Below are positions 1 through 8,389 of a stretch of DNA of 64,000 nucleotides, piece by piece. The stretch lies in sequence record MT129654.1, one strand, 5' to 3'. Position numbers and translations under genes: made by a program. A model generated the notes under the pieces. It saw only the letters and a list, made by a program, of their open reading frames with translations, ran no database searches and was not told where the DNA came from. Every line of letters begins with the position of its first letter. The stretch's first letter is position 1. The DNA comes from Escherichia phage MN04.

Positions 1-1
1 G

Positions 2-181
2 ACTCTTGCCGGACAAGACTGGAAAACTGATGACCCAGATAGCCCGTATTATTTGCACCGATATACACTTCAAAAAATGATTACCGATTATCCGGAGGTT
101 GATGTACAAGAATCTCGTAATGGTCGAATTATTCATCGCACCGCTTTAGAAGCTGGTATTATATACGATTACGTTTATTAA
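2..181 (+). CDS. 3' fragment of a gene truncated by the window edge (hypothetical)
   Basis: Open frame from window start to TAA at 179-181; followed by a GC hairpin. Confidence 0.3.
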   Translation, partial: TLAGQDWKTDDPDSPYYLHRYTLQKMITDYPEVDVQESRNGRIIHRTALEAGIIYDYVY

Positions 182-185
182 TTAA

Positions 186-206
186 GGGCCGCAAGGCCCA
201 TTTTGC
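186..206 (+). terminator. Rho-independent terminator hairpin (GGGCC-GCAA-GGCCC then T-rich)
   Basis: Perfect 5-bp GC stem with GCAA loop followed by ATTTTG. Confidence 0.5.
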
Positions 207-225
207 ATTAAAGTACAAAATTCCT

Positions 226-255
226 GTTTACAAGTTAAAAATTCTATGTTAAGAT
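226..255 (+). promoter_or_regulatory. T4-type early promoter candidate (GTTTAC -35, TAAGAT -10)
   Basis: GTTTAC at 226, 17-bp spacer, -10-like hexamer, about 30 nt before ATG 286. Confidence 0.4.
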
Positions 256-285
256 GAGTTTTACCGACTCAACGAGAGAATTGTT

Positions 286-495
286 ATGGATAAGGTTAAA
301 GTACATTTTTTACACGAATCTGGGTTGAATTTTATAGAAATTGCTAAAAAAATGGGCGGGACCGCTAAGGACATGGCCAAAGCATGGGTTGATGTAGAAC
401 AAGCCAAGGCCAAATTTAAAGCGAAAGAAAAGGTTGTTTATCGTAAAAGATTGAACAACAAGGTTCGGCGCAAAGCGCGTTCTGGTTCAAAGTAA
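286..495 (+). CDS. Small basic protein with helix-turn-helix-like segment (hypothetical)
   Basis: 69 aa ORF; HTH-like 'LNFIEIAKKMGGTAKDMAKAW'; Lys/Arg-rich tail. Confidence 0.45.
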   Translation: MDKVKVHFLHESGLNFIEIAKKMGGTAKDMAKAWVDVEQAKAKFKAKEKVVYRKRLNNKVRRKARSGSK

Positions 496-498
496 TAT

Positions 499-523
499 GC
501 TTTAAATTTAGGTGTGTTATAAT
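499..523 (+). promoter_or_regulatory. MotA-dependent middle promoter candidate for rnlB
   Basis: MotA box GCTTTA 499-504, 13-bp spacer, TATAAT 518-523; conserved GGGTCTAGGTCCTT downstream. Confidence 0.5.
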
Positions 524-609
524 GGGTCTAGGTCCTTCCGTTAAACCATTTGGCTTGGTGACAGAAGACTACTAGCTCTTCTATTTAATTATATTTATTA
601 TGGTGATTT

Positions 610-1614
610 ATGTTCAAGAAATATAGCAGTCTCGAAAACCACTACAACAGTAAGTTTATCGAAAAACTCCGTACTAACGGTTTGACTGGTGGTGAATGGG
701 TAGCACGTGAGAAGATTCATGGAACCAACTTTAGTTTAATCATAGAACGTGACGCAGTCACATGCGCCAAGCGCACTGGCCCTATCCTCCCTGCTGAAGA
801 TTTCTATGGTTATGAAATTGTACTCAAGAACTATGCTGATTCTATTAAATCCGTTCAACATCTAATTGAATCGATTAATTACCAGTCATACCAGATTTAT
901 GGCGAATTCGCTGGGCCAGGTATCCAGAAGAATGTGGACTACGGTGATAAAGACTTTTATGTGTTCGATATCCGAGTTACTAAGGAAGATGGCACTGAAT
1001 CTGTTCTAACCGATACATTGATGGAAGCCTTCTGTATTATCCATAAGTTTAAGGTAGCCCCATGTCTGGCCACTGGTAGCTTTGAAGACCTTATTAAATT
1101 ACCTAATGACTTTGATTCGGTTGTTCCTGATTATAATTTTGCAGTGGATAACGCAGGCTTAACTATTGCTAACTCAACCGATTTTATTCCTAAGGTTGAA
1201 GGTAAAGTATTCACGGCTGAAGGCTTTGTACTTAAACCTGATATTCCTACCTGGCTTCCTAATGGAAATCGTGTAGCGATTAAATGTAAGAACTCTAAAT
1301 TCAGCGAGAAGAAAAAGTCTGATAAGCCTATTAAAGCTGCAGTGGTTTTATCCCAAGATGATATGGATTTGATGTGGCAATTCACTGATTATGTGACTGT
1401 TAACCGCATTAATAATGTCATCAGTAAGATTGGTGAAGTATCTAAAAAGGATTTTGGAAAGGTAATGGGCTTGACAGTTCAAGATATCCTTGAAGAAGCT
1501 GCCCGTGAAGAATTAGAATTAACTGATGCCGAAAATCCTGTTGAAGTTAAAAAGCAGCTCGTTGAGTGCGTAAAAGATACCTTACGAGCCGTATGGATTG
1601 AATTAGTGTCATAA
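610..1614 (+). CDS. rnlB: RNA ligase 2 (Rnl2)
   Basis: 334 aa; N-terminus [20 protein letters not shown] and KIHGTNF lysine-adenylylation motif as in T4 Rnl2; convergent with gene 24 as in T4. Confidence 0.9.
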
Positions 1615-1620
1615 GACGAC

Positions 1621-1646
1621 AAAGGGACCTTACGGTCCCTTTTTAG
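1621..1646. terminator. Bidirectional terminator between convergent rnlB and gp24 paralog
   Basis: AAAGGGACC-TTAC-GGTCCCTTT hairpin with flanking T/A runs. Confidence 0.6.
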
Positions 1647-2926
1647 TTTTTATCCAATGGAGGAAGTTTTACACCAAGATAAGAACTCAATTGACTTTGA
1701 TTAGCCATTTTGTCCATATCCGCACCATCAATAATACGAGCTTCTTTGTCGTCTTTAGCGACGGTATAAGGATTCGCAGTCAATGCATACCGAGCCAATA
1801 AAGATATGGTAGGTTGCAATGAATCCGGGTCTACAATAACCTTGAATTCACCTACTGAAGTATCACCTTCATCATCAACCTCTTCGAGCCCTTCCGTATA
1901 AGGCGCATAATACAAAGATGCGACCGTCTGCCCTTCACCCATCTGAGCATTTACACCGACAATAACATAATCACACGGGCTATTCATATCAGCATAAAGT
2001 GGTAGACCGTTCTTTAATACGCCATAAGCTAATTCGTCTTGGTCTTCTTTTTTCTCAACCCAACCGGATGCAGCTAAAATAGCAGCGCAGCGAGAAGAAG
2101 CTACTGCATAAGTACCTGCAAACGAAGTCTGGCGTTGAACAGCAGAATTCATTTCACACATATAGTAATACAAGGTACGTGCTCGGTCTTGGGCGTTATC
2201 GTATTGTGGGTCTGTTAAGTTCAAGACACCTTTCTCAGAAACTCCTTGGACTTTAAAACGAGAACTTACCGTAATTAAGGACTGTAATACGTCTTTATTA
2301 ATTTCTTCAGCCATTTGAATAGCCAAAATATTGTCTATAAAGTCCGGTGCATTAAACCCGTTGGATTCTAAATCCTGGGCCAGTTCCACAGTCAAAGAAG
2401 TTTTAAGTTTACGCGATTTAACTTCAGTCTGCCACTTATCAATACGGAACCCTGCTTCAGCAATCTCAGGATGACCTTTTTCAAATTTATTGGTAAAGGC
2501 TGCATCAGACATCATACGAATATGGCCCGCGGCAATAGCTTCTGAAATAACTTCACTCAAATCGGTTTCAGTTGTTCCTGCAAACGGAGAAGCTTCTAAT
2601 ACCTTGAAAACCACACTTTCGAATTGGAACATATCGCCAACAGCATATGCTTCGTCTTTATCGGTGAACTCAGGAATGTTTTTACGTTCGAACATACCAA
2701 TTTCGCCTGCAAAAGTGGCTCCGCCGAGATAAGTCATTTTATCGTCTGGGTTTAAAACACGGACACCATATAATGCTGCAACAGGTTGAGTAGTTTTTTG
2801 TTCAGCAACAAGGGCTTTAAAAATTCTTTTATTAGTTGCCTGGGTATATGAAAGAAGATTAGGACGGGCGACCTGGTTGGCCGCCGTCAAAGTTGATTCT
2901 TGTATTAATGCATTAATCTTTTTCAT
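1643..2926 (-). CDS. gp24: Head vertex protein gp24, divergent second paralog
   Basis: 427 aa; clearly paralogous to adjacent gp24 (shared KSRKLKT, ELAQD, NKDVLQSLITVS, NPYTVAKDDKEAR); start ATG abuts upstream stop (TAAATG). Confidence 0.8.
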   Translation of the reverse strand: MKKINALIQESTLTAANQVARPNLLSYTQATNKRIFKALVAEQKTTQPVAALYGVRVLNPDDKMTYLGGATFAGEIGMFERKNIPEFTDKDEAYAVGDMFQFESVVFKVLEASPFAGTTETDLSEVISEAIAAGHIRMMSDAAFTNKFEKGHPEIAEAGFRIDKWQTEVKSRKLKTSLTVELAQDLESNGFNAPDFIDNILAIQMAEEINKDVLQSLITVSSRFKVQGVSEKGVLNLTDPQYDNAQDRARTLYYYMCEMNSAVQRQTSFAGTYAVASSRCAAILAASGWVEKKEDQDELAYGVLKNGLPLYADMNSPCDYVIVGVNAQMGEGQTVASLYYAPYTEGLEEVDDEGDTSVGEFKVIVDPDSLQPTISLLARYALTANPYTVAKDDKEARIIDGADMDKMANQSQLSSYLGVKLPPLDKN

Positions 2927-4207
2927 TTATGCCTCGTAAATAATCGGAGGAAGTTTAACACCAAGCAGATAAGACATGTTACTCTGACCTGCCATTAAAT
3001 CCATATTAGTTGCGTCTATAACACGAGCTTCTTTATCATCTTTAGCAACGGTATATGGGTTTGCTGAAAGTGCATAACGAACCATCAGAGAAATAGCCGG
3101 TTGTAAACTATCAGGGTCTACAATAACTTTATACGCACCAACATGTTCTTGGTCGTCTAAATCCAGACCTTCGGTATACGGAGCATAGAAAATAGAACCA
3201 ACTACTTCATTACCGCCGTAATCTTCTTTAACGCCTACGATAACATAATCTAAAGGACTATTAACATCACAGAATACAGGCAATCCATTAATCAAATAAC
3301 CGTAAGCAGTTTCTGGGAGCCAAGCTTCATCTTCTGGTTTATGTTTCAACCAACCTGAACCAGCGAGCATAGCAGCAGCACGACTAGATGCGACAACAAA
3401 CGTACCTGAATAAGAAGTGGTTTTCTGAATTTCAGAATTCATCTCACAAACCATTTCATATAATTTACGTGCACTTTCTGGGGCGGAATTATAGGACAAA
3501 TCAATAATACCATTATCAGATACACCAGTTACTTTGTAACGTTTAGATACGGTAATCAAGGATTGTAGTACGTCTTTATTGATTTCATCAGCCATTACAG
3601 TGGCTAAAAGGTCTTCTAAGAACGCAGGGGCGTCGAAGCCATTGGATTCCATGTCTTGGGCTAGTTCTACAGTCAAAGCGGTTTTAAGTTTACGAGACTT
3701 AACAGGTGCGTTCCATTTATTAACCTGGAATACTGCATTACTAATTTCAACATCACCTGCTTCGAATTTCTCTGTGTGAGCCGCATCAGGAACCAGACGA
3801 CATGTTAATGACACCAAACCTTCTTGAAGGGCCTCAGCCAATTCTGTAGCGCTAGTGGATGCGAGTGGGCTTGCTTGAAGAGCCTTATAAACTATGTTCT
3901 GATACTTGAAATATTCACCCTTGGCAATAGCCTGGGCCTTATCTGTGAGTTCTGGGATAGTTTCACGGTCTTTAGAACCAACTTCACCGCCATAAACGGC
4001 ACCAGTTTGGAAGCTAAATTCATTATCAGGAGTAAGATATTTGACACCATACAATGCAGCAATAGGCTGGCTAGTACGTTGTTCAGCAATAATATCACGG
4101 TAAATCAATTTGGTTGTAGCACGGGTCAAAGCAACAAGATTAGGGCGACCCAATGAGTTGCTAGAAGTAGTTGTTGACTCGCGCAGTAATTCGTTAATCT
4201 TTGCCAT
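2927..4207 (-). CDS. gp24: Head vertex protein gp24
   Basis: 426 aa; MAKINELLRESTTT N-terminus and overall match to T4 gp24; adjacent to gp23. Confidence 0.85.
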   Translation of the reverse strand: MAKINELLRESTTTSSNSLGRPNLVALTRATTKLIYRDIIAEQRTSQPIAALYGVKYLTPDNEFSFQTGAVYGGEVGSKDRETIPELTDKAQAIAKGEYFKYQNIVYKALQASPLASTSATELAEALQEGLVSLTCRLVPDAAHTEKFEAGDVEISNAVFQVNKWNAPVKSRKLKTALTVELAQDMESNGFDAPAFLEDLLATVMADEINKDVLQSLITVSKRYKVTGVSDNGIIDLSYNSAPESARKLYEMVCEMNSEIQKTTSYSGTFVVASSRAAAMLAGSGWLKHKPEDEAWLPETAYGYLINGLPVFCDVNSPLDYVIVGVKEDYGGNEVVGSIFYAPYTEGLDLDDQEHVGAYKVIVDPDSLQPAISLMVRYALSANPYTVAKDDKEARVIDATNMDLMAGQSNMSYLLGVKLPPIIYEA

Positions 4208-4235
4208 TGCGCTTTCCTTATTGAGGGTATATGTT

Positions 4236-4243
4236 TATTTATA
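4236..4243 (-). promoter_or_regulatory. Late promoter TATAAATA for gp24
   Basis: TATAAATA on minus strand about 30 nt upstream of gp24 ATG (4207). Confidence 0.6.
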
Positions 4244-4249
4244 AAAGTT

Positions 4250-4290
4250 GTTTACAGCAAGGTTATCACATGTTACTATAGACCTATCAA
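4250..4290 (+). promoter_or_regulatory. Early promoter module (GTTTACA ... TACTATAGACCTATCAA)
   Basis: GTTTACA at 4250; conserved TATAGACCTATCAAAACA box shared with more than 8 other copies in window. Confidence 0.6.
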
Positions 4291-4308
4291 AACATGAGGA
4301 GATTAAAA

Positions 4309-4575
4309 ATGAACAAGTTAAACTTTATTCGTACTACTCTTTCCGCTCTTGATAAAGACATCAAAGCCCTGGTAGAAAAATATGGTTCCAATCCTAACGG
4401 TAATGCAGTGAATGCACTAGTTAAGAAATACGAAGCCATGGCTTATGCTACCGACTTCTGGTGGAACGGTGAATACTCTACCCATACCAAAGACAAATCT
4501 GGTAACTGGCTGAAAATCCAAGAAAATCGTATTGACTTCCGTGATATCATCAACCGTCGTGTTAAGATTGCATAG
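4309..4575 (+). CDS. Hypothetical 88 aa protein, early-promoter driven, inside the late capsid module
   Basis: ATG 4309 with GAGGAG RBS; track ORF 4294 is a 5-codon extension; flanked by promoter and terminator hairpin. Confidence 0.5.
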   Translation: MNKLNFIRTTLSALDKDIKALVEKYGSNPNGNAVNALVKKYEAMAYATDFWWNGEYSTHTKDKSGNWLKIQENRIDFRDIINRRVKIA

Positions 4576-4588
4576 TATAGAAACAAGA

Positions 4589-4610
4589 ATGGGAGACCGA
4601 AGTCTCCCAT
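4589..4610. terminator. Bidirectional terminator hairpin (ATGGGAGAC-CGAA-GTCTCCCAT)
   Basis: 9-bp stem between stop of ORF 4309-4575 and stop of gp23. Confidence 0.55.
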
Positions 4611-4623
4611 AATAAGGTTTATA

Positions 4624-6183
4624 TTAGATACCTTTAACATATACGCGACGGAAGTAACCATTCAGACCGAGGCTGTTAACGATGTCAGGCATACCATTCT
4701 GAATACGTTTGGTAGGTGCCTGAGCAGCTGGGTCAGCGAACGGGTTAATACCGATACCGTAACGAGTTTTGAAGCCCATTACCGGTTGGAAGTTCTTCGG
4801 ATCGGAACCACGCAGCGGAGTCAGCGCAACGTACGGAGCATAGTAGATACCTGCGTCCATTTCGTTGGAACCTTTATAACCGATGGTGAAGTAATCGGAA
4901 CGAGCATACTGGTCGATGTAAACACGATATTTACCACCAAGAACACCGGCAAATACTGCTTTGGTTGTGTCAACGTTGAAACCCTGACCCAGACCTTGAG
5001 CTGCATAACTTACAGAAGTATCAACTGCAGCCAGTACGTTAACTACGTTACGGGAAGCGATGATGAAGTTACCAGCACCACGACCGGTCTGACGAGCGAT
5101 TTCGGCTGCTTCTTTATCAATCTGGAACAGAAGGGCTTTAAAGCTCTCACCGGCCCAACGAGCACCACGGATATCAATCGGGTCCTGGAAGTCAAACACA
5201 CCAGCTTTAGCGCCAACGGTGTTGGTCATACCAGATTTACCAACCTGTGCAGAGTAGTTAATCCAATCGATAACTTCACGGTTGATTTCGAGCATAATTT
5301 CGGTAGCAAGGATACCGGACAGTTCAGCATCTGCATCCATACCGTGTACTGCACGAAGGTCCTGTGCCAGTTCGATAGAGTAGCTTGCTTTCAGCTGACG
5401 AGATTTAGCTTCGATAACTTGTTTGTCGATGCGGAAGCCCATTTCGTTCCACGGGTTATCGGTAGAACCGTTGAAACCTTCCTGAAGTTCGGCGATAGAA
5501 GTAGCCATACCTTCAGCGATTTCAGCCAGCTGACCAGCTTCAACCAGAGCGGTAACAGCAGCATCCAGTTTAGCGGCATCAGTAGCGCCTGCATCAACGG
5601 TTACAGCTTCAACAGCCTGGAAGTGTGCAGAACCGGTAGCTTCGAAGAAGTGAGAATAAATTTTACCAACTTCCAGAACTTTGCTTGCAGCCAGTGCTTC
5701 GAAAGTTTCAGCAGCACCCTGACCAGAGAACATAGCGTTCGGAGCATACATCGGATGGAAAGCTTCTTTAGCGCCTGCAGCGATAGGGTCTTTACCATAT
5801 ACTGCACGCAGTGCAAATACCTGACCGGTAGGGTTATTCAGAGGCTGAACACCACAAATATCAAAAGCAATCAGATGAGGAATAGCACGACGAACCATAC
5901 CCATTACTGCCGGCCCAATCTGAGTTACAGCACCAGAAGTCTGGCCAGCTGCGATATTGGTAGCATCATAACCGTGGTCACCACCAATTTCAGCTTCGGT
6001 CAGGAAAGAACCAAATGCTTCAGAGATTTTTTCATCACGGTATTCCGGGGCAGTCAGGATGTCTTGTTCCTGGTTTTCGAAAATTTTAGCGATGATAGCT
6101 TGTTTAGAAGCACCAACGATTTCAGGAAGAGCTTCGTTTTCCAGCAGAGCGGACCATTTTTGAACTAATGCATTCTTTTTCAT
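4624..6183 (-). CDS. gp23: Major capsid protein gp23
   Basis: 519 aa; N-terminal propeptide and body closely match T4 gp23. Confidence 0.95.
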   Translation of the reverse strand: MKKNALVQKWSALLENEALPEIVGASKQAIIAKIFENQEQDILTAPEYRDEKISEAFGSFLTEAEIGGDHGYDATNIAAGQTSGAVTQIGPAVMGMVRRAIPHLIAFDICGVQPLNNPTGQVFALRAVYGKDPIAAGAKEAFHPMYAPNAMFSGQGAAETFEALAASKVLEVGKIYSHFFEATGSAHFQAVEAVTVDAGATDAAKLDAAVTALVEAGQLAEIAEGMATSIAELQEGFNGSTDNPWNEMGFRIDKQVIEAKSRQLKASYSIELAQDLRAVHGMDADAELSGILATEIMLEINREVIDWINYSAQVGKSGMTNTVGAKAGVFDFQDPIDIRGARWAGESFKALLFQIDKEAAEIARQTGRGAGNFIIASRNVVNVLAAVDTSVSYAAQGLGQGFNVDTTKAVFAGVLGGKYRVYIDQYARSDYFTIGYKGSNEMDAGIYYAPYVALTPLRGSDPKNFQPVMGFKTRYGIGINPFADPAAQAPTKRIQNGMPDIVNSLGLNGYFRRVYVKGI

Positions 6184-7047: not shown

Positions 7048-7055
7048 TATTTATA
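7048..7055 (-). promoter_or_regulatory. Late promoter TATAAATA for gp22
   Basis: TATAAATA on minus strand overlapping gp21 stop, about 28 nt upstream of gp22 ATG. Confidence 0.55.
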
Positions 7056-7686
7056 ACGCTTTTTTCATGGCCTCTGCGAGAGCCATAAAGGCGTCATCGG
7101 CACTGGTATCGGTATCTACCGTTTGTGATTCTGTAATTTGTTTAGGAGTTACATAAGCATCAGGAGCAGATGGACCCCATACTGCATCAACACCGACGGT
7201 TAATTTATAACCTTCGTTTACACGCTTATATCCTTTATTGGTTTCGGTTAAAGAACCTAGACCACGAGAACTAACACCAGGCACCCAACCGGCTCTAATA
7301 TTAGCAGCTAGTTTATCACCAGGACCATGGTCGCCTTCAATAATACGAGCACGTCCATAAACGTCATTACCTTTCCACCACATATCTTCAATAATAATAG
7401 CGGCTTGCATAGGGTCGACGTTAGCACGAGGCGGATGATTTAATTCTCCTAAAGCTTGTTTAGTAGCAACCTGTTCTGCCATATAATCGGCAACAGCTTT
7501 TTCCAAAATAGGTTTTGGATAAAGGCGTTTATTACGGTTAACCACTTCGGCTTGCATGAATATGCCTTCTATATAAAGGCCCGGGGCAAGTCCAGAATCT
7601 TTTCCATCATGAGATTCCAACATCGGAACCCCATCGATAATTTCACCTGGTTGTCCCCAATGTTCGATGAGCAATTCAGGTTTCAT
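7051..7686 (-). CDS. gp21: Prohead protease gp21
   Basis: 211 aa; size and position match T4 gp21. Confidence 0.85.
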   Translation of the reverse strand: MKPELLIEHWGQPGEIIDGVPMLESHDGKDSGLAPGLYIEGIFMQAEVVNRNKRLYPKPILEKAVADYMAEQVATKQALGELNHPPRANVDPMQAAIIIEDMWWKGNDVYGRARIIEGDHGPGDKLAANIRAGWVPGVSSRGLGSLTETNKGYKRVNEGYKLTVGVDAVWGPSAPDAYVTPKQITESQTVDTDTSADDAFMALAEAMKKAL

Positions 7687-8114
7687 TAGTTAAGTCCAAA
7701 GGCTTTACGTTTAGAACGAGCTTTCTTACGCTTACGTTCAGCACGTACTTGAGTAGACGGGTTAGCACGTTTGGTTTTAGATGCTTTGCGAGCAATCTGA
7801 CGGCGTTTTGCTTTAGACAACCCAGTCGTTTGATAAGCGTTGCGTTGACGGGTTTTAATATCTTTAGTACGAGTAAGCTCACCTTTAGAAGAGACGTGCT
7901 TAACGATAAATTCGTTAAGAGCCATATTTTCATTCAAAGAGGCGATGGCAATAGCTGTATCGATATCACCATCAGCAATCATGTTCTCTACAAGATTATT
8001 TATATCGCTTTTCTCGAGGGCTTCAGAAAGAGTAGCAAAACGTCCCTGTGCTTCTGGAATTTTGGCCTCTACGCTTTCTAGAGTTAATTCGTAATCATCA
8101 GGGATAAGGAACAT
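7686..8114 (-). CDS. gp68: Prohead core protein gp68
   Basis: 142 aa; T4 order 20-67-68-21; basic C-terminus. Confidence 0.65.
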
Positions 8115-8389
8115 TATTCGTCGTCCTCGTCGTCTTCATCATCGTCATCACCTTCATCCGCATCGTCAGATTCTTTTTTGTCTTTCTTATCTGCTTTATC
8201 GGATTTTTCGTCTTTATCTTCGTCTTCGTCATCTTCGTCGGCTTCTTCGCCTTCAATCATAACGGAGCGAGCAATTTCTGCTTTACGGGCTTCAATCAAA
8301 GCGGCTACTCGAGATTCGATAAGCGGGCCTGCTGCTTTACGAACTGCTACGAGGTCGTTTGATTTAATAGCTTCGATTAAATCTTCCAT
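8114..8389 (-). CDS. gp67: Prohead core protein gp67
   Basis: 91 aa with poly-acidic Asp/Glu tail; T4 synteny. Confidence 0.65.

What the first reader, a model, noticed from the sequence alone, without database searches (positions are those of the whole stretch)
1643..4207. Tandem duplication of the gp24 vertex protein gene
Two adjacent 426/427-aa paralogs share long identical blocks but diverge elsewhere; the gp23-proximal copy is closer to T4 gp24. The distal copy starts at the stop of the proximal one (TAAATG). T4 has a single gp24 (itself an ancient gp23 paralog). A second vertex paralog could form mixed or alternative pentons.
Basis: partly seen in the sequence, partly recalled or inferred. 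Interest (0 to 1): 0.5.

Follow-up and report, generated by a model that had tools for sequence, protein, structure and literature searches.

The report
Two vertex-protein genes in phage JS98
This T4-like coliphage (JS98) carries two adjacent, intact genes for the protein that caps the corners of its head; the pair is already annotated in public records, and it proves to be old, widely conserved and still without a known function rather than a recent duplication.

Summary
Two minus-strand ORFs (2927..4207, 426 aa; 1643..2926, 427 aa) are full-length gp24 homologs, 56% identical to each other, joined as TAA|ATG. The g23-proximal copy is closer to T4 gp24 (70.5% vs 55.7%). The window is phage JS98 (99.8%), and GenBank has named the genes 24a and 24b since 2007, so the feature is already known.

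The "tandem duplication" reading needs revision.
- The same pair, in the same order, occurs in Dhaka-, Gelderland-, Kanagawa- and Marfavirus, and in Erwinia phage FBB1-like phages.
- 24a and T4 gp24 fall together in one 100%-supported "a-type" clade that excludes all 24b orthologs, so the a/b split predates the T4-JS98 divergence.
- Synonymous sites between the copies are saturated and there is no gene conversion. The identical blocks are motifs shared by all gp24.
- Both copies are under purifying selection as strong as for a sole gp24 (omega 0.02-0.10).
- One late promoter drives both genes, with tight start/stop coupling. Both keep the gp21 cleavage motif.
- The b-type is never found alone, and it carries derived changes at positions that are near-invariant in other gp24.
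- Phage MX01, on a near-identical backbone, has the pair precisely replaced by one gene.

Function remains unknown; no proteomics or structure of a two-copy phage was found.

The parts
4236..4243 (-). T4-type late promoter TATAAATA. The motif starts 36 nt upstream of the 24a ATG. It is the only such motif serving the pair.
   Evidence: exact match; 17 in the window vs 6.9 expected by chance; none lies between 1643 and 4207; the same motif sits 33-37 nt upstream of the a-gene ATG in every two-copy locus with upstream sequence, and never inside the a ORF.
4215..4219 (-). Shine-Dalgarno-like AAGGA ahead of the 24a start codon (ATG at 4207..4205).
   Evidence: Read directly from the sequence.
2927..4207 (-). 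Gene 24a: a-type vertex protein, 426 aa. It is the ortholog of T4 gp24 (70.5% identity).
   Evidence: Pfam PF07068 at E = 3e-97. Inside the a-type clade with T4 at 99-100% bootstrap. omega 0.04-0.10.
2932..2935 (-). GAGG ribosome-binding site for 24b, lying inside the last codons of 24a. The 24a stop TAA is at 2929..2927 and the 24b ATG at 2926..2924 (0-nt spacer).
   Evidence: One search shows spacing of -4 to +1 nt in all 17 non-redundant two-copy loci.
1643..2926 (-). Gene 24b: b-type second vertex-protein paralog, 427 aa. It is 56% identical to 24a and to T4 gp24.
   Evidence: Pfam PF07068 at E = 4e-98. Aligns end-to-end with T4 gp24 structures 1YUE/7VS5/5VF3/8GMO at E = 4e-150. AlphaFold model best matches T4 gp24, TM 0.75-0.77. 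omega 0.02-0.10. b-clade supported at 100%.
1621..1642 (.). G+C-rich hairpin between the convergent 24b and rnlB genes; a likely shared terminator. This intergenic island is 95-100% conserved among Dhakaviruses.
   Evidence: 9-bp stem with 5 GC pairs, followed by a T-run. (conservation). The downstream MX01 breakpoint falls here.
4589..4610 (-). Terminator-like hairpin just after the g23 stop codon. It separates g23 transcription from the 24a-24b unit.
4624..6183 (-). Gene 23, the major capsid protein (context). Its product forms the hexamers that surround the vertex pentamers.
   Evidence: It is 27-29% identical to 24a and 24b.

Best explanation
The locus is a conserved two-gene late operon, P-late-24a-24b, encoding two non-redundant head-vertex (penton) subunits of the T4 gp24 family.

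24a is the ordinary gp24 ortholog. 24b is an ancient paralog that exists only next to an a-type gene. It has acquired fixed changes at positions that are otherwise near-invariant in gp24.

Proposed mechanism:
1. Both proteins are made late from one transcript, with translational coupling.
2. Both enter the prohead and lose their first 10 residues to the gp21 protease.
3. Both end up at five-fold vertices.
4. 24b most likely forms its own pentamers rather than mixing subunit-by-subunit with 24a. Its class-specific changes sit in the N-terminal segment and the start of I-domain linker 1, elements that pair between neighbouring subunits in the T4 penton. It also has a longer, more acidic 348-359 loop.
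5. 24b-containing vertices add a beneficial but backbone-dependent property, such as capsid robustness or altered recognition by capsid-sensing host defences.

Shown here: homology, fold, operon architecture, conservation, purifying selection, phylogeny, and cassette replacement in MX01. Inferred: expression level, cleavage, incorporation into the virion, homopentamer formation, and the selective benefit.
For: Family and fold:
- Both are full-length PF07068 proteins.
- 24b aligns end-to-end with solved T4 gp24 at E = 4e-150.
- The 24b model matches T4 gp24 (TM 0.75-0.77) ahead of gp23 (TM 0.5-0.6).

Expression architecture:
- A single late promoter lies 36 nt upstream of 24a, and none precedes 24b.
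- 24b's GAGG RBS lies inside the 24a 3' end, with a 0-nt spacer.
- The same architecture, with spacing of -4 to +1 nt, is found in 17 of 17 non-redundant two-copy loci.

Processing:
- The (L/I)-x-E|S motif at residues 8-11 is conserved in every a and b ortholog.
- This matches the 10-residue gp21 cleavage of T4 gp24 (PMC9546572; mature chains in 5VF3 and 8GMO start at residue 11).

Non-redundancy:
- omega is 0.02-0.10 for both copies in 11 ortholog pairs, the same as sole-copy gp24 (0.045-0.13) and gp23.
- The two copies evolve at equal rates (mean p-distance 0.21 vs 0.19) and are co-inherited (r = 0.91).
- Both are intact in every two-copy locus across at least 5 lineages.

Specialisation of b:
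- There are nine class-specific sites: V25L, T32N, L34R, K56R, Y57V, Y108F, P244Q, E335Q, L415Y.
- At 6 of the 9, b is the derived state relative to 27 outgroup gp24 sequences. Five of the 9 lie in residues 25-57.
- In T4, aa 26-29 beta-pair with an I-domain linker of the adjacent gp24* subunit.
- The 348-359 loop has a fixed length in all 54 a-type sequences but is a median of 3 residues (up to 7) longer and more acidic in b.
- The b-signature is never found in a sole vertex gene.

Argument against obligate a/b co-assembly:
- Closely related b genes pair with a-alleles from three different a-subclades.
- Paired a-alleles can carry the T4-like states at positions 258, 268 and 269.

Plausible selective pressures, from the literature:
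- gp24 confers acid, heat and protease stability on T4 (PMC10580926).
- T6 gp24 is required to trigger type IV Thoeris (PMC13243611).
Against: - There is no protein-level evidence for either copy in any two-copy phage. Ten literature searches found no proteomics or cryo-EM, and the JS98 genome paper is not held.
- In T4 all 55 gp24* subunits are conformationally alike, so a prolate head does not obviously need two penton types.
- MX01 has a near-isogenic backbone (gp23 97% identical) and a single vertex gene, so 24b is not essential for this capsid design.
- The link between the class-specific sites and the subunit interface rests on T4 coordinates described in a paper, not on a measured contact map. 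The AlphaFold model is of low confidence precisely in residues 1-33 and 339-386.
- Tight translational coupling and r = 0.91 co-inheritance would fit heteromers equally well.
- 24b has a somewhat lower codon-adaptation proxy than 24a (0.38 vs 0.46). This is uninformative about stoichiometry.
Confidence: 0.45

Rival explanations
1. This is a recent, lineage-specific tandem duplication of the resident gene 24, giving a redundant spare copy that is free to drift. This is the simplest reading of the first-stage note.
For: The genes are adjacent, in the same orientation, of near-equal length and 56% identical.
Against: - 24a groups with T4, Mosigvirus and Karamvirus gp24 at 99-100% bootstrap, excluding 24b.
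- Site patterns favour (24a,T4)|(24b,outgroup) over (24a,24b)|(T4,outgroup) by 10 to 1.
- Orthologous pairs occur in at least 5 divergent lineages, including FBB1-like phages.
- Synonymous sites are saturated, and the longest shared DNA word is 14 nt.
- Both copies have omega 0.02-0.10, the same as a sole gp24.
Confidence: 0.03
2. This rival concerns origin only. 24b is a xenolog: the sole vertex gene of some divergent T4-like phage was captured by recombination and landed beside the resident gene 24. On this view there was no in-genome duplication.
For: - 24b branches outside the whole a-type clade, and its position relative to Jiaoda-, Teguna- and Acinetobacter-phage gp24 is unresolved (23-51% support).
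- It shares some loop states with those groups.
- Whole-cassette exchange at this locus demonstrably happens (MX01), as does swapping of a-alleles.
Against: - No phage or contig with a b-type gene as its only vertex gene was found in the 50,697 phage records, in IMG/VR, or in the 5.8-billion-protein collection.
- The b-signature changes affect positions that are 85-100% conserved in every sole-copy gp24. This looks like specialisation after duplication rather than the state of a stand-alone vertex protein.
- The loop indels are homoplastic, because FBB1-type b has the long loop.
Confidence: 0.15
3. 24a and 24b co-assemble into mixed heteropentamers at every vertex, in a fixed or stochastic ratio, rather than forming separate pentons.
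For: - Start/stop coupling (-4 to +1 nt) is conserved in 17 of 17 loci, which suggests coordinated synthesis.
- The a and b distance matrices correlate at r = 0.91, higher than either does with gp23.
- b is never found without a.
Against: - Five is prime, so an ordered two-component penton cannot keep five-fold symmetry.
- Closely related b genes tolerate a-partners from three different a-subclades. This argues against a tightly co-evolved a/b interface.
- The class-specific changes cluster in the inter-subunit N-terminal and linker region. That would more simply give self-specific interfaces.
- The r = 0.91 correlation is expected from physical linkage alone.
Confidence: 0.2
4. 24b is not a stable virion component. 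It acts during infection as an assembly factor, or as a decoy or shield against host defences that sense the vertex protein.
For: - The T6 vertex protein is required for type IV Thoeris activation (PMC13243611).
- The vertex cassette and its downstream neighbours are more divergent among Dhakaviruses (81-87% nt identity) than g22 and g23 (95-99%).
- 24b is dispensable in the MX01 backbone.
Against: - 24b keeps the complete HK97 + I-domain architecture, the gp21 cleavage motif, and all family motifs that build the shell, such as the spine helix and the P-domain strands.
- The Thoeris-escape position A380 is Ala in both copies and in 21 of 22 b-type sequences, so b would probably be sensed as well.
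- Adding a second copy does not remove the sensed one.
Confidence: 0.1
5. One copy is a decaying pseudogene.
For: None found.
Against: Both ORFs are intact at 422-432 aa in every two-copy locus examined. omega is 0.02-0.10. All 71 invariant family columns are retained in the 47-sequence alignment, which includes both copies.
Confidence: 0.01

Closest known systems
Bacteriophage T4 gp24 head vertex protein (PDB 1YUE, 5VF3, 7VRT/7VS5, 8GMO; Pfam PF07068)
   Same: Same family, length, fold and gene position downstream of g23 behind a late promoter. Same 10-residue propeptide motif. 24a is its ortholog at 70.5% identity, and 24b is 55.7% identical over the full length.
   Different: T4 has one gene, and its 55 gp24* subunits are all alike. 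Here a second, diverged gene follows the first. That gene has nine class-specific substitutions, six of them at positions conserved in 85-100% of other gp24 sequences, and a longer acidic 348-359 loop.
Annotated '24a/24b' or 'vertex protein I/II' pairs in JS98, JS10, IME08, VR5, ZX14, CGG4-1, Melville and other records
   Same: This window is JS98 itself (99.8%). The pair is annotated in GenBank EF469154 and NC_010105 and in dozens of related records.
   Different: The records only name the genes. No function, stoichiometry or location for the second protein was found in the held literature.
The older gp23 to gp24 duplication, and T4 'bypass-24' mutants
   Same: The precedent is a capsid-protein paralog that specialises for a geometric position (hexamer vs pentamer). 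gp24 can be replaced when gp23 acquires bypass mutations. In the same way, the 24a-24b pair can be replaced by a single gene in MX01.
   Different: gp23 and gp24 are about 25% identical and have clearly different oligomeric roles. 24a and 24b are 56% identical, and both look like penton subunits. No positional difference between them is known.
Modular cassette exchange in T4-like genomes, with conserved boundaries around variable cargo
   Same: The MX01 vs JS98 breakpoints lie in the two conserved intergenic islands flanking the vertex gene or genes. a-alleles are shuffled between backgrounds.
   Different: Here the exchanged cargo is an essential structural gene set whose copy number differs (two genes vs one), rather than accessory or host-range genes.

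Membership tests
T4 gp24 vertex-protein family (Pfam PF07068, Gp23/Gp24) | Full-length sequence match to the family profile above the curated cut-off | tested here: met
   24a scores 326.8 bits and 24b 329.8 bits against a cut-off of 24.4. Both cover profile positions 3-376 of 376.
T4 gp24 vertex-protein family (Pfam PF07068, Gp23/Gp24) | Closer to gp24 than to the major capsid protein gp23 | tested here: met
   24a and 24b are 70.5% and 55.7% identical to T4 gp24, vs 27-29% to gp23. PDB sequence search: gp24 at E = 4e-150, gp23 at about 1e-11. Fold search: gp24 TM 0.65-0.77, gp23 TM 0.43-0.60.
T4 gp24 vertex-protein family (Pfam PF07068, Gp23/Gp24) | HK97-like fold with the T4-type insertion (I) domain | tested here: met
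   The AlphaFold2 model of 24b (pLDDT 64.6, pTM 0.61) has confident I- and A-domain cores. Its top three PDB matches are T4 gp24 chains 5VF3_a, 7VRT_he and 1YUE. The N-arm and residues 339-386 are of low confidence. 24a was not modelled; it is 70% identical to 1YUE.
T4 gp24 vertex-protein family (Pfam PF07068, Gp23/Gp24) | Late-gene position directly downstream of g23 in the head-gene cluster, behind a TATAAATA late promoter | tested here: met
   Gene order is g20-g21-g22-g23-(orf173)-24a-24b. The late promoter is at 4243..4236. 24b has no promoter of its own and depends on read-through from 24a.
T4 gp24 vertex-protein family (Pfam PF07068, Gp23/Gp24) | N-terminal 10-residue propeptide removed by the prohead protease gp21, cutting after (L/I)-x-E | tested here: inconclusive
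   The motif is present and conserved in all a and b orthologs: LLRE|S in a, LI(Q/H/K/R/Y)E|S in b. A gp21 homolog is encoded nearby at 7051..7686. Actual cleavage cannot be shown from sequence.
T4 gp24 vertex-protein family (Pfam PF07068, Gp23/Gp24) | Forms pentamers occupying the 11 non-portal vertices of the mature head | not testable with these tools
   This needs virion proteomics or cryo-EM. No such data for any two-copy phage were found, and every gp24-like solved structure in the PDB is from T4.
Recent tandem gene duplicate (paralogs that are each other's closest relatives) | The two copies are sister to each other relative to orthologs in related genomes | tested here: not met
   24a is sister to the T4-type genes. 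The a-type clade is supported at 100% and contains no b. 24a+T4, excluding FBB1_a, is supported at 99%. Site patterns are 10:1:4 against a+b. The trees are NJ only; no ML software was available.
Recent tandem gene duplicate (paralogs that are each other's closest relatives) | Residual DNA-level similarity or gene-conversion tracts | tested here: not met
   pS = 0.68 overall. No window shows low synonymous divergence. The longest shared word is 14 nt.

The most novel reading that the evidence does not exclude
A two-penton capsid is the ancestral state for a large part of the Tevenvirinae, and T4 itself is secondarily simplified. In two-copy phages such as JS98, the a- and b-pentamers occupy different classes of the 11 non-portal vertices of the prolate head, for example the apical vertex versus the ten 'shoulder' vertices, or the portal-proximal versus the distal ring. 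That would be a built-in positional code in a capsid long assumed to use a single vertex protein.
Probability: 0.12. Interest if true: 0.7.

Novelty: already known. Interest (0 to 1): 0.35.

Why it matters
T4 is the reference model for large prolate capsids, and its description (one hexamer protein, one penton protein) is taken as general for the group. At least 91 sequenced relatives, plus many metagenomic contigs, encode a second, strongly conserved penton-like protein whose role has never been established.

If both proteins are in the virion, these phages build heads with two kinds of corners. That bears on three questions:
- How vertices are specified during assembly.
- How capsids are stabilised. 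gp24 is the main determinant of acid, heat and protease resistance in T4.
- How phages vary a protein that host defences use as a trigger (type IV Thoeris).

Many two-copy phages (JS98, JS10, IME08, S16-like Salmonella phages, Klebsiella Marfaviruses) are candidates for phage therapy, so particle stability matters in practice.

The feature itself is ordinary in the sense of being already annotated. The value added here is the evolutionary re-reading (old pair, T4 as the a-type survivor, precise cassette swap in MX01) and a short list of residues and experiments that make the question testable.

Tried and rejected
1. MX01 as a 24a/24b chimera from unequal crossing-over: rejected. Its gene is 68.5% identical to 24a and 52.7% to 24b, and branches outside the whole 24a core clade. 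It is a clean replacement.
2. Gene conversion as the source of the identical blocks: rejected.
3. Loop indels as decisive proof that 24b is 'outgroup-like': downgraded. FBB1-type b proteins carry the long form of the SGW loop, so these loops are homoplastic.
4. P0041 as a b-like single-copy donor lineage: rejected. It is single-copy but a-like at 7 of the 9 signature sites.
5. Pairing-specific adaptation of the a-copy (N258, S268, G269): rejected. The paired a-alleles P0049 and P0080 have the T4 states.
6. Accelerated evolution of 24b as an artefact explaining its deep position: not supported. Root-to-tip path lengths are similar (0.35 vs 0.32), and present-day rates are equal. The base of the tree remains unresolved.
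   - The '24b' hits in PMC10580926 are 'delta-24 byp24' T4 mutants.
   - The Tn-seq preprint's gp24 belongs to an unrelated jumbo phage.
   - The Klebsiella proteomics paper covers single-copy Jiaodavirus.
   - Zuber et al. 2007 (JS98 genome) and Fokine et al. 2005 (gp24 structure) are not held.
8. No ML phylogeny software was available, so all trees are bootstrapped NJ on Kimura-corrected distances.
10. Codon-adaptation proxy for stoichiometry: uninformative.
Full report
WHAT IS THERE

The stated interval is filled exactly by two intact minus-strand ORFs: 2927..4207 (426 aa) and 1643..2926 (427 aa). They lie downstream of the gp23 ORF (4624..6183) in a T4-type head-gene cluster, g20-g21-g22-g23. 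The two products align over their full length at 56% identity (239/428, E = 5e-180). The junction reads GCA TAA ATG, so the second gene starts on the base after the first gene's stop codon.

Megablast identifies the window as Escherichia phage JS98 (99.8% over 3.2 kb). The GenBank record already names the genes 24a (EpJS98_0174) and 24b (EpJS98_0175), both as 'gp24 head vertex protein'. Both window proteins are 100% identical to those entries.

FAMILY MEMBERSHIP

- Both proteins are full-length PF07068 members, at about 327-330 bits against a cut-off of 24.4.
- 24b aligns end-to-end with solved T4 gp24 (1YUE, 7VRT/7VS5, 5VF3, 8GMO) at E = 4e-150. It matches gp23 only at about 1e-11.
- An AlphaFold2 model of 24b (pLDDT 64.6, pTM 0.61) is confident in the I- and A-domain cores and weak in residues 1-33 and 339-386. 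Its three best PDB matches are T4 gp24 chains (TM 0.65-0.77), ahead of gp23.
- T4 has a single gp24, with segD upstream.

THE 'IDENTICAL BLOCKS'

There are nine runs of 6-14 identical residues. Of those 83 residues, 75 are also identical in T4 gp24. They are motifs of the spine helix, the P-domain strands and the C-terminus shared by all gp24. At the DNA level the proportion of synonymous differences between the copies is 0.68 (saturated), no window shows reduced synonymous divergence, and the longest shared word is 14 nt. There is no gene conversion and no sign of a recent copy.

EXPRESSION ARCHITECTURE

- One T4-type late promoter (TATAAATA, 4243..4236) starts 36 nt upstream of the 24a ATG. 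No such motif lies inside 24a or ahead of 24b.
- A terminator-like hairpin follows g23 (4610..4589). A second hairpin (1621..1642) lies between the convergent 24b and rnlB genes.
- 24b's GAGG ribosome-binding site lies in the last codons of 24a.
- Across 17 non-redundant two-copy loci, the a-stop/b-start spacing is always -4 to +1 nt. The late promoter is always 33-37 nt upstream of the a ATG, and never inside a.
- The pair is therefore a conserved bicistronic late operon. This is shown from sequence; transcription itself is inferred.
- All a and b orthologs keep the (L/I)-x-E|S motif at residues 8-11. This corresponds to the 10-residue gp21 cleavage of T4 gp24 (PMC9546572; mature chains in 5VF3 and 8GMO start at residue 11). 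Conservation of a prohead-protease site in b is the best sequence-level hint that b enters the prohead.

DISTRIBUTION

tblastn against 50,697 phage records finds 91 records with a match of at least 80% to 24b, and likewise 91 with at least 80% to 24a. Annotated tandem pairs occur in:
- Dhakavirus: JS98, JS10, VR5
- Gelderlandvirus: Melville
- Marfavirus: Kpn BM7
- a Kanagawavirus-labelled Enterobacter phage: ZX14

All 16 IMG/VR loci with a b-type gene of at least 79% identity (L019-L034) have an a-type gene immediately upstream. In the 5.8-billion-protein collection the b-type comprises 21 clusters (P0001-P0021). The most divergent of these (65-69% identity; Erwinia phage FBB1 and metagenomic relatives) are again g23-a-b tandems.

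Single-copy phages include T4, Mosigvirus, Karamvirus, Jiaodavirus, Tegunavirus, Bragavirus, Acinetobacter phages, Krischvirus, Slopekvirus and Tulanevirus.

No phage or contig with a b-type gene as its sole vertex gene was found. The one weak candidate (P0041) is single-copy but a-like at 7 of the 9 signature positions.

PHYLOGENY

All trees are NJ on Kimura-corrected distances, with 100-300 bootstraps; no ML software was available.

- 24a orthologs and 24b orthologs each form 100%-supported clades. Their internal topologies mirror each other: (Marfa,(Kanagawa,(Gelderland,Dhaka))).
- In the 108-taxon tree, the b-type clade including FBB1_b is supported at 100%.
- A 100%-supported a-type clade contains FBB1_a, EcS1, the 24a core clade, the T4/Mosig/Karam/Merlin group and the MX01/PEi20/PM2 group. 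It contains no b.
- 24a+T4, excluding FBB1_a, is supported at 99%.
- Four-group site patterns give 10 for (24a,T4)|(24b,outgroup), 1 for (24a,24b)|(T4,outgroup), and 4 for the third arrangement.
- Root-to-tip path lengths from the a/b node are similar (24a 0.317, 24b 0.350, T4 0.318). Present-day rates are equal (mean p-distance 0.21 vs 0.19). So b is an old lineage, not simply a fast one.
- The position of the a/b node relative to Jiaoda-, Teguna- and Acinetobacter-phage gp24 is unresolved (23-51% support).

Inference: the a/b split predates the divergence of T4 from JS98, and T4 gp24 is an a-type gene. Since FBB1-like and JS98-like phages both carry orthologous pairs and T4 nests between their a-copies, there are two options. 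Either T4-type lineages lost b, or the pair (or its a-slot) moves between backbones by recombination.

EVIDENCE FOR RECOMBINATION

- MX01 is a Dhakavirus with gp23 97% identical to JS98's. Its DNA is 92-99% identical to JS98 through g22-g23 and rnlB-hoc. Identity drops to 59-74% exactly over a single vertex gene, with breakpoints in the two intergenic islands. That gene branches outside the whole 24a core clade.
- Closely related b genes (P0013, P0014, P0015) pair with a-partners from three different a-subclades: P0049 in the T4/Karam group, P0105 in the 24a core, and P0080 in the PM2 group.
- Among Dhakaviruses, the flanking intergenic islands are 95-100% conserved, while 24a and 24b are 81-87% identical and g22/g23 95-99%. 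rnlB-hoc downstream is also variable.
- Overall the pair is largely co-inherited (a vs b distance r = 0.91, vs 0.76-0.80 with gp23), with occasional slot-wise exchange.

SELECTION AND SPECIALISATION

- In 11 ortholog pairs omega is 0.02-0.10 for both copies. This matches sole-copy gp24 (0.045-0.13) and gp23 (0.01-0.12). Neither copy is relaxed, so they are not redundant.
- Nine positions are fixed (at least 90%) to different, non-overlapping residues in the 54 a-type and 22 b-type sequences: V25L, T32N, L34R, K56R, Y57V, Y108F, P244Q, E335Q, L415Y (T4 numbering).
- At six of these, 27 outgroup gp24 sequences share the a-state at 85-100%. So b carries derived changes at positions otherwise near-invariant in the family. 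Five of the nine lie in residues 25-57.
- In the expanded T4 head, aa 26-29 form a parallel beta interaction with an I-domain linker of the adjacent gp24* subunit. Residues 11-20 reach onto a neighbouring hexamer, and linker 1 begins near residue 60 (PMC9546572).
- The 348-359 loop has a fixed length in all a-type sequences but is a median of 3 residues (up to 7) longer and more acidic in b.
- Paired a-alleles show no pairing-specific signature.

HOW IT MOST LIKELY WORKS

Both proteins are made late from one coupled message, enter the prohead, are trimmed by gp21, and serve as vertex subunits. This is inference. I favour separate a5 and b5 pentons for three reasons: five-fold capsomers cannot be ordered heteromers, b's defining changes lie in elements that pair between neighbouring subunits, and b tolerates very different a partners.

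The benefit is unknown. Two candidates come from the literature:
- Capsid robustness. gp24 gives T4 acid, heat and protease resistance (PMC10580926).
- Altered interaction with defences that need the vertex protein as a trigger. T6 escapes type IV Thoeris by gp24 A380V (PMC13243611). However, A380 is Ala in both copies here.

Points against a strict structural need:
- All 55 gp24* subunits in T4 are alike.
- MX01 manages with one gene.

Mixed pentons, a non-virion role, and lateral capture as the origin of b all remain open rivals.

COMPARISON WITH WHAT IS KNOWN, AND VERDICT

The pair belongs to the T4 gp24 family on every feature that could be tested. Pentamer formation and vertex location could not be tested. 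It fails the tests for a recent tandem duplicate.

The feature is already known as an annotation (24a/24b; 'vertex protein I/II'). I found no published functional, proteomic or structural study in the held library, but the primary JS98 genome paper could not be read.

Interest is moderate. A specialist would not be surprised that the genes exist. The questions of what a second, ancient, strongly conserved penton protein does, and whether T4 is the simplified case, are open and directly testable.

Noticed in passing
window 4294..4575 (+); homologs in L008 2632..2898, L013 2634..2900, L014 5306..5572, L015 3133..3399: A conserved 88-93-aa ORF (JS98 orf173; phrog_6003, unknown function, no Pfam hit) lies on the opposite strand in the g23-g24 gap. 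T4 holds the homing endonuclease segD in the same slot. IME341, IME08 and Mosigvirus LF82-31 carry a homing endonuclease next to the orf173 homolog.
   Followed up: partly
L008 (Escherichia phage MX01, KU878969) 2900..4345 vs window 1620..4300: This is a precise cassette replacement. A Dhakavirus backbone 92-99% identical to JS98 on both sides carries one foreign a-type vertex gene (59-74% nt identity) in place of 24a+24b. The breakpoints lie in the conserved late-promoter and terminator-hairpin islands.
   Followed up: yes
L043 2676..4506, L044 4890..6427, L049 6331..7856, L051 6326..7841 (FBB1-like and metagenomic two-copy loci): Directly after the b gene, and co-oriented with it, lie a collagen-like 'tail fibre' protein (phrog_5073, E down to 1e-43) and a small protein matching only the capsid-binding C-terminus of Hoc (phrog_1149, E down to 5e-38). 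This may be a head-fibre or decoration module encoded next to the second vertex gene. JS98 lacks it.
   Followed up: partly
L019 (IME281-like) vs window 1643..4207: There is a mosaic boundary inside the pair. Against JS98, 24b is 99.5% identical at the nt level (dS 0.025), but the adjacent 24a is only 94.4% (dS 0.23). Recombination therefore also separates the two genes.
   Followed up: partly
L015 (JS10) 7868..8278 and L014 (VR5) 1..1131, compared with the JS98 hoc gene (L001 834..1682; upstream of the window's first base): JS10 and VR5 give no blastn match to JS98 hoc at this position. JS10 instead has a gene annotated 'tail fiber protein' on the g24 strand, and IME08 has a 'tail fiber-like protein' in the same neighbourhood. 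The head-decoration slot downstream of the vertex genes is highly variable within the genus.
   Followed up: no
window, whole: The late-promoter motif TATAAATA occurs 17 times against 6.9 expected. All ten sites below 18 kb are on the minus strand. Five of the seven sites beyond 33 kb are on the plus strand, which marks a switch in late-gene orientation.
   Followed up: no
P0021 (b-type protein of contig L046), T4-numbering position 380: One natural b-type protein has Val at position 380 (RYVL). This is the same substitution that lets T6 escape type IV Thoeris. All 54 a-type and the other 21 b-type sequences have Ala.
   Followed up: no
ICTV labels of L005 (ZX14) and PEi20 (P0114): Both are labelled Kanagawavirus. 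ZX14 carries the a+b pair, while the one PEi20 vertex protein recovered belongs to the MX01-type a-group, whose checked member (MX01) is single-copy. If PEi20 really has one gene, copy number varies within a nominal genus; its locus was not inspected.
   Followed up: no
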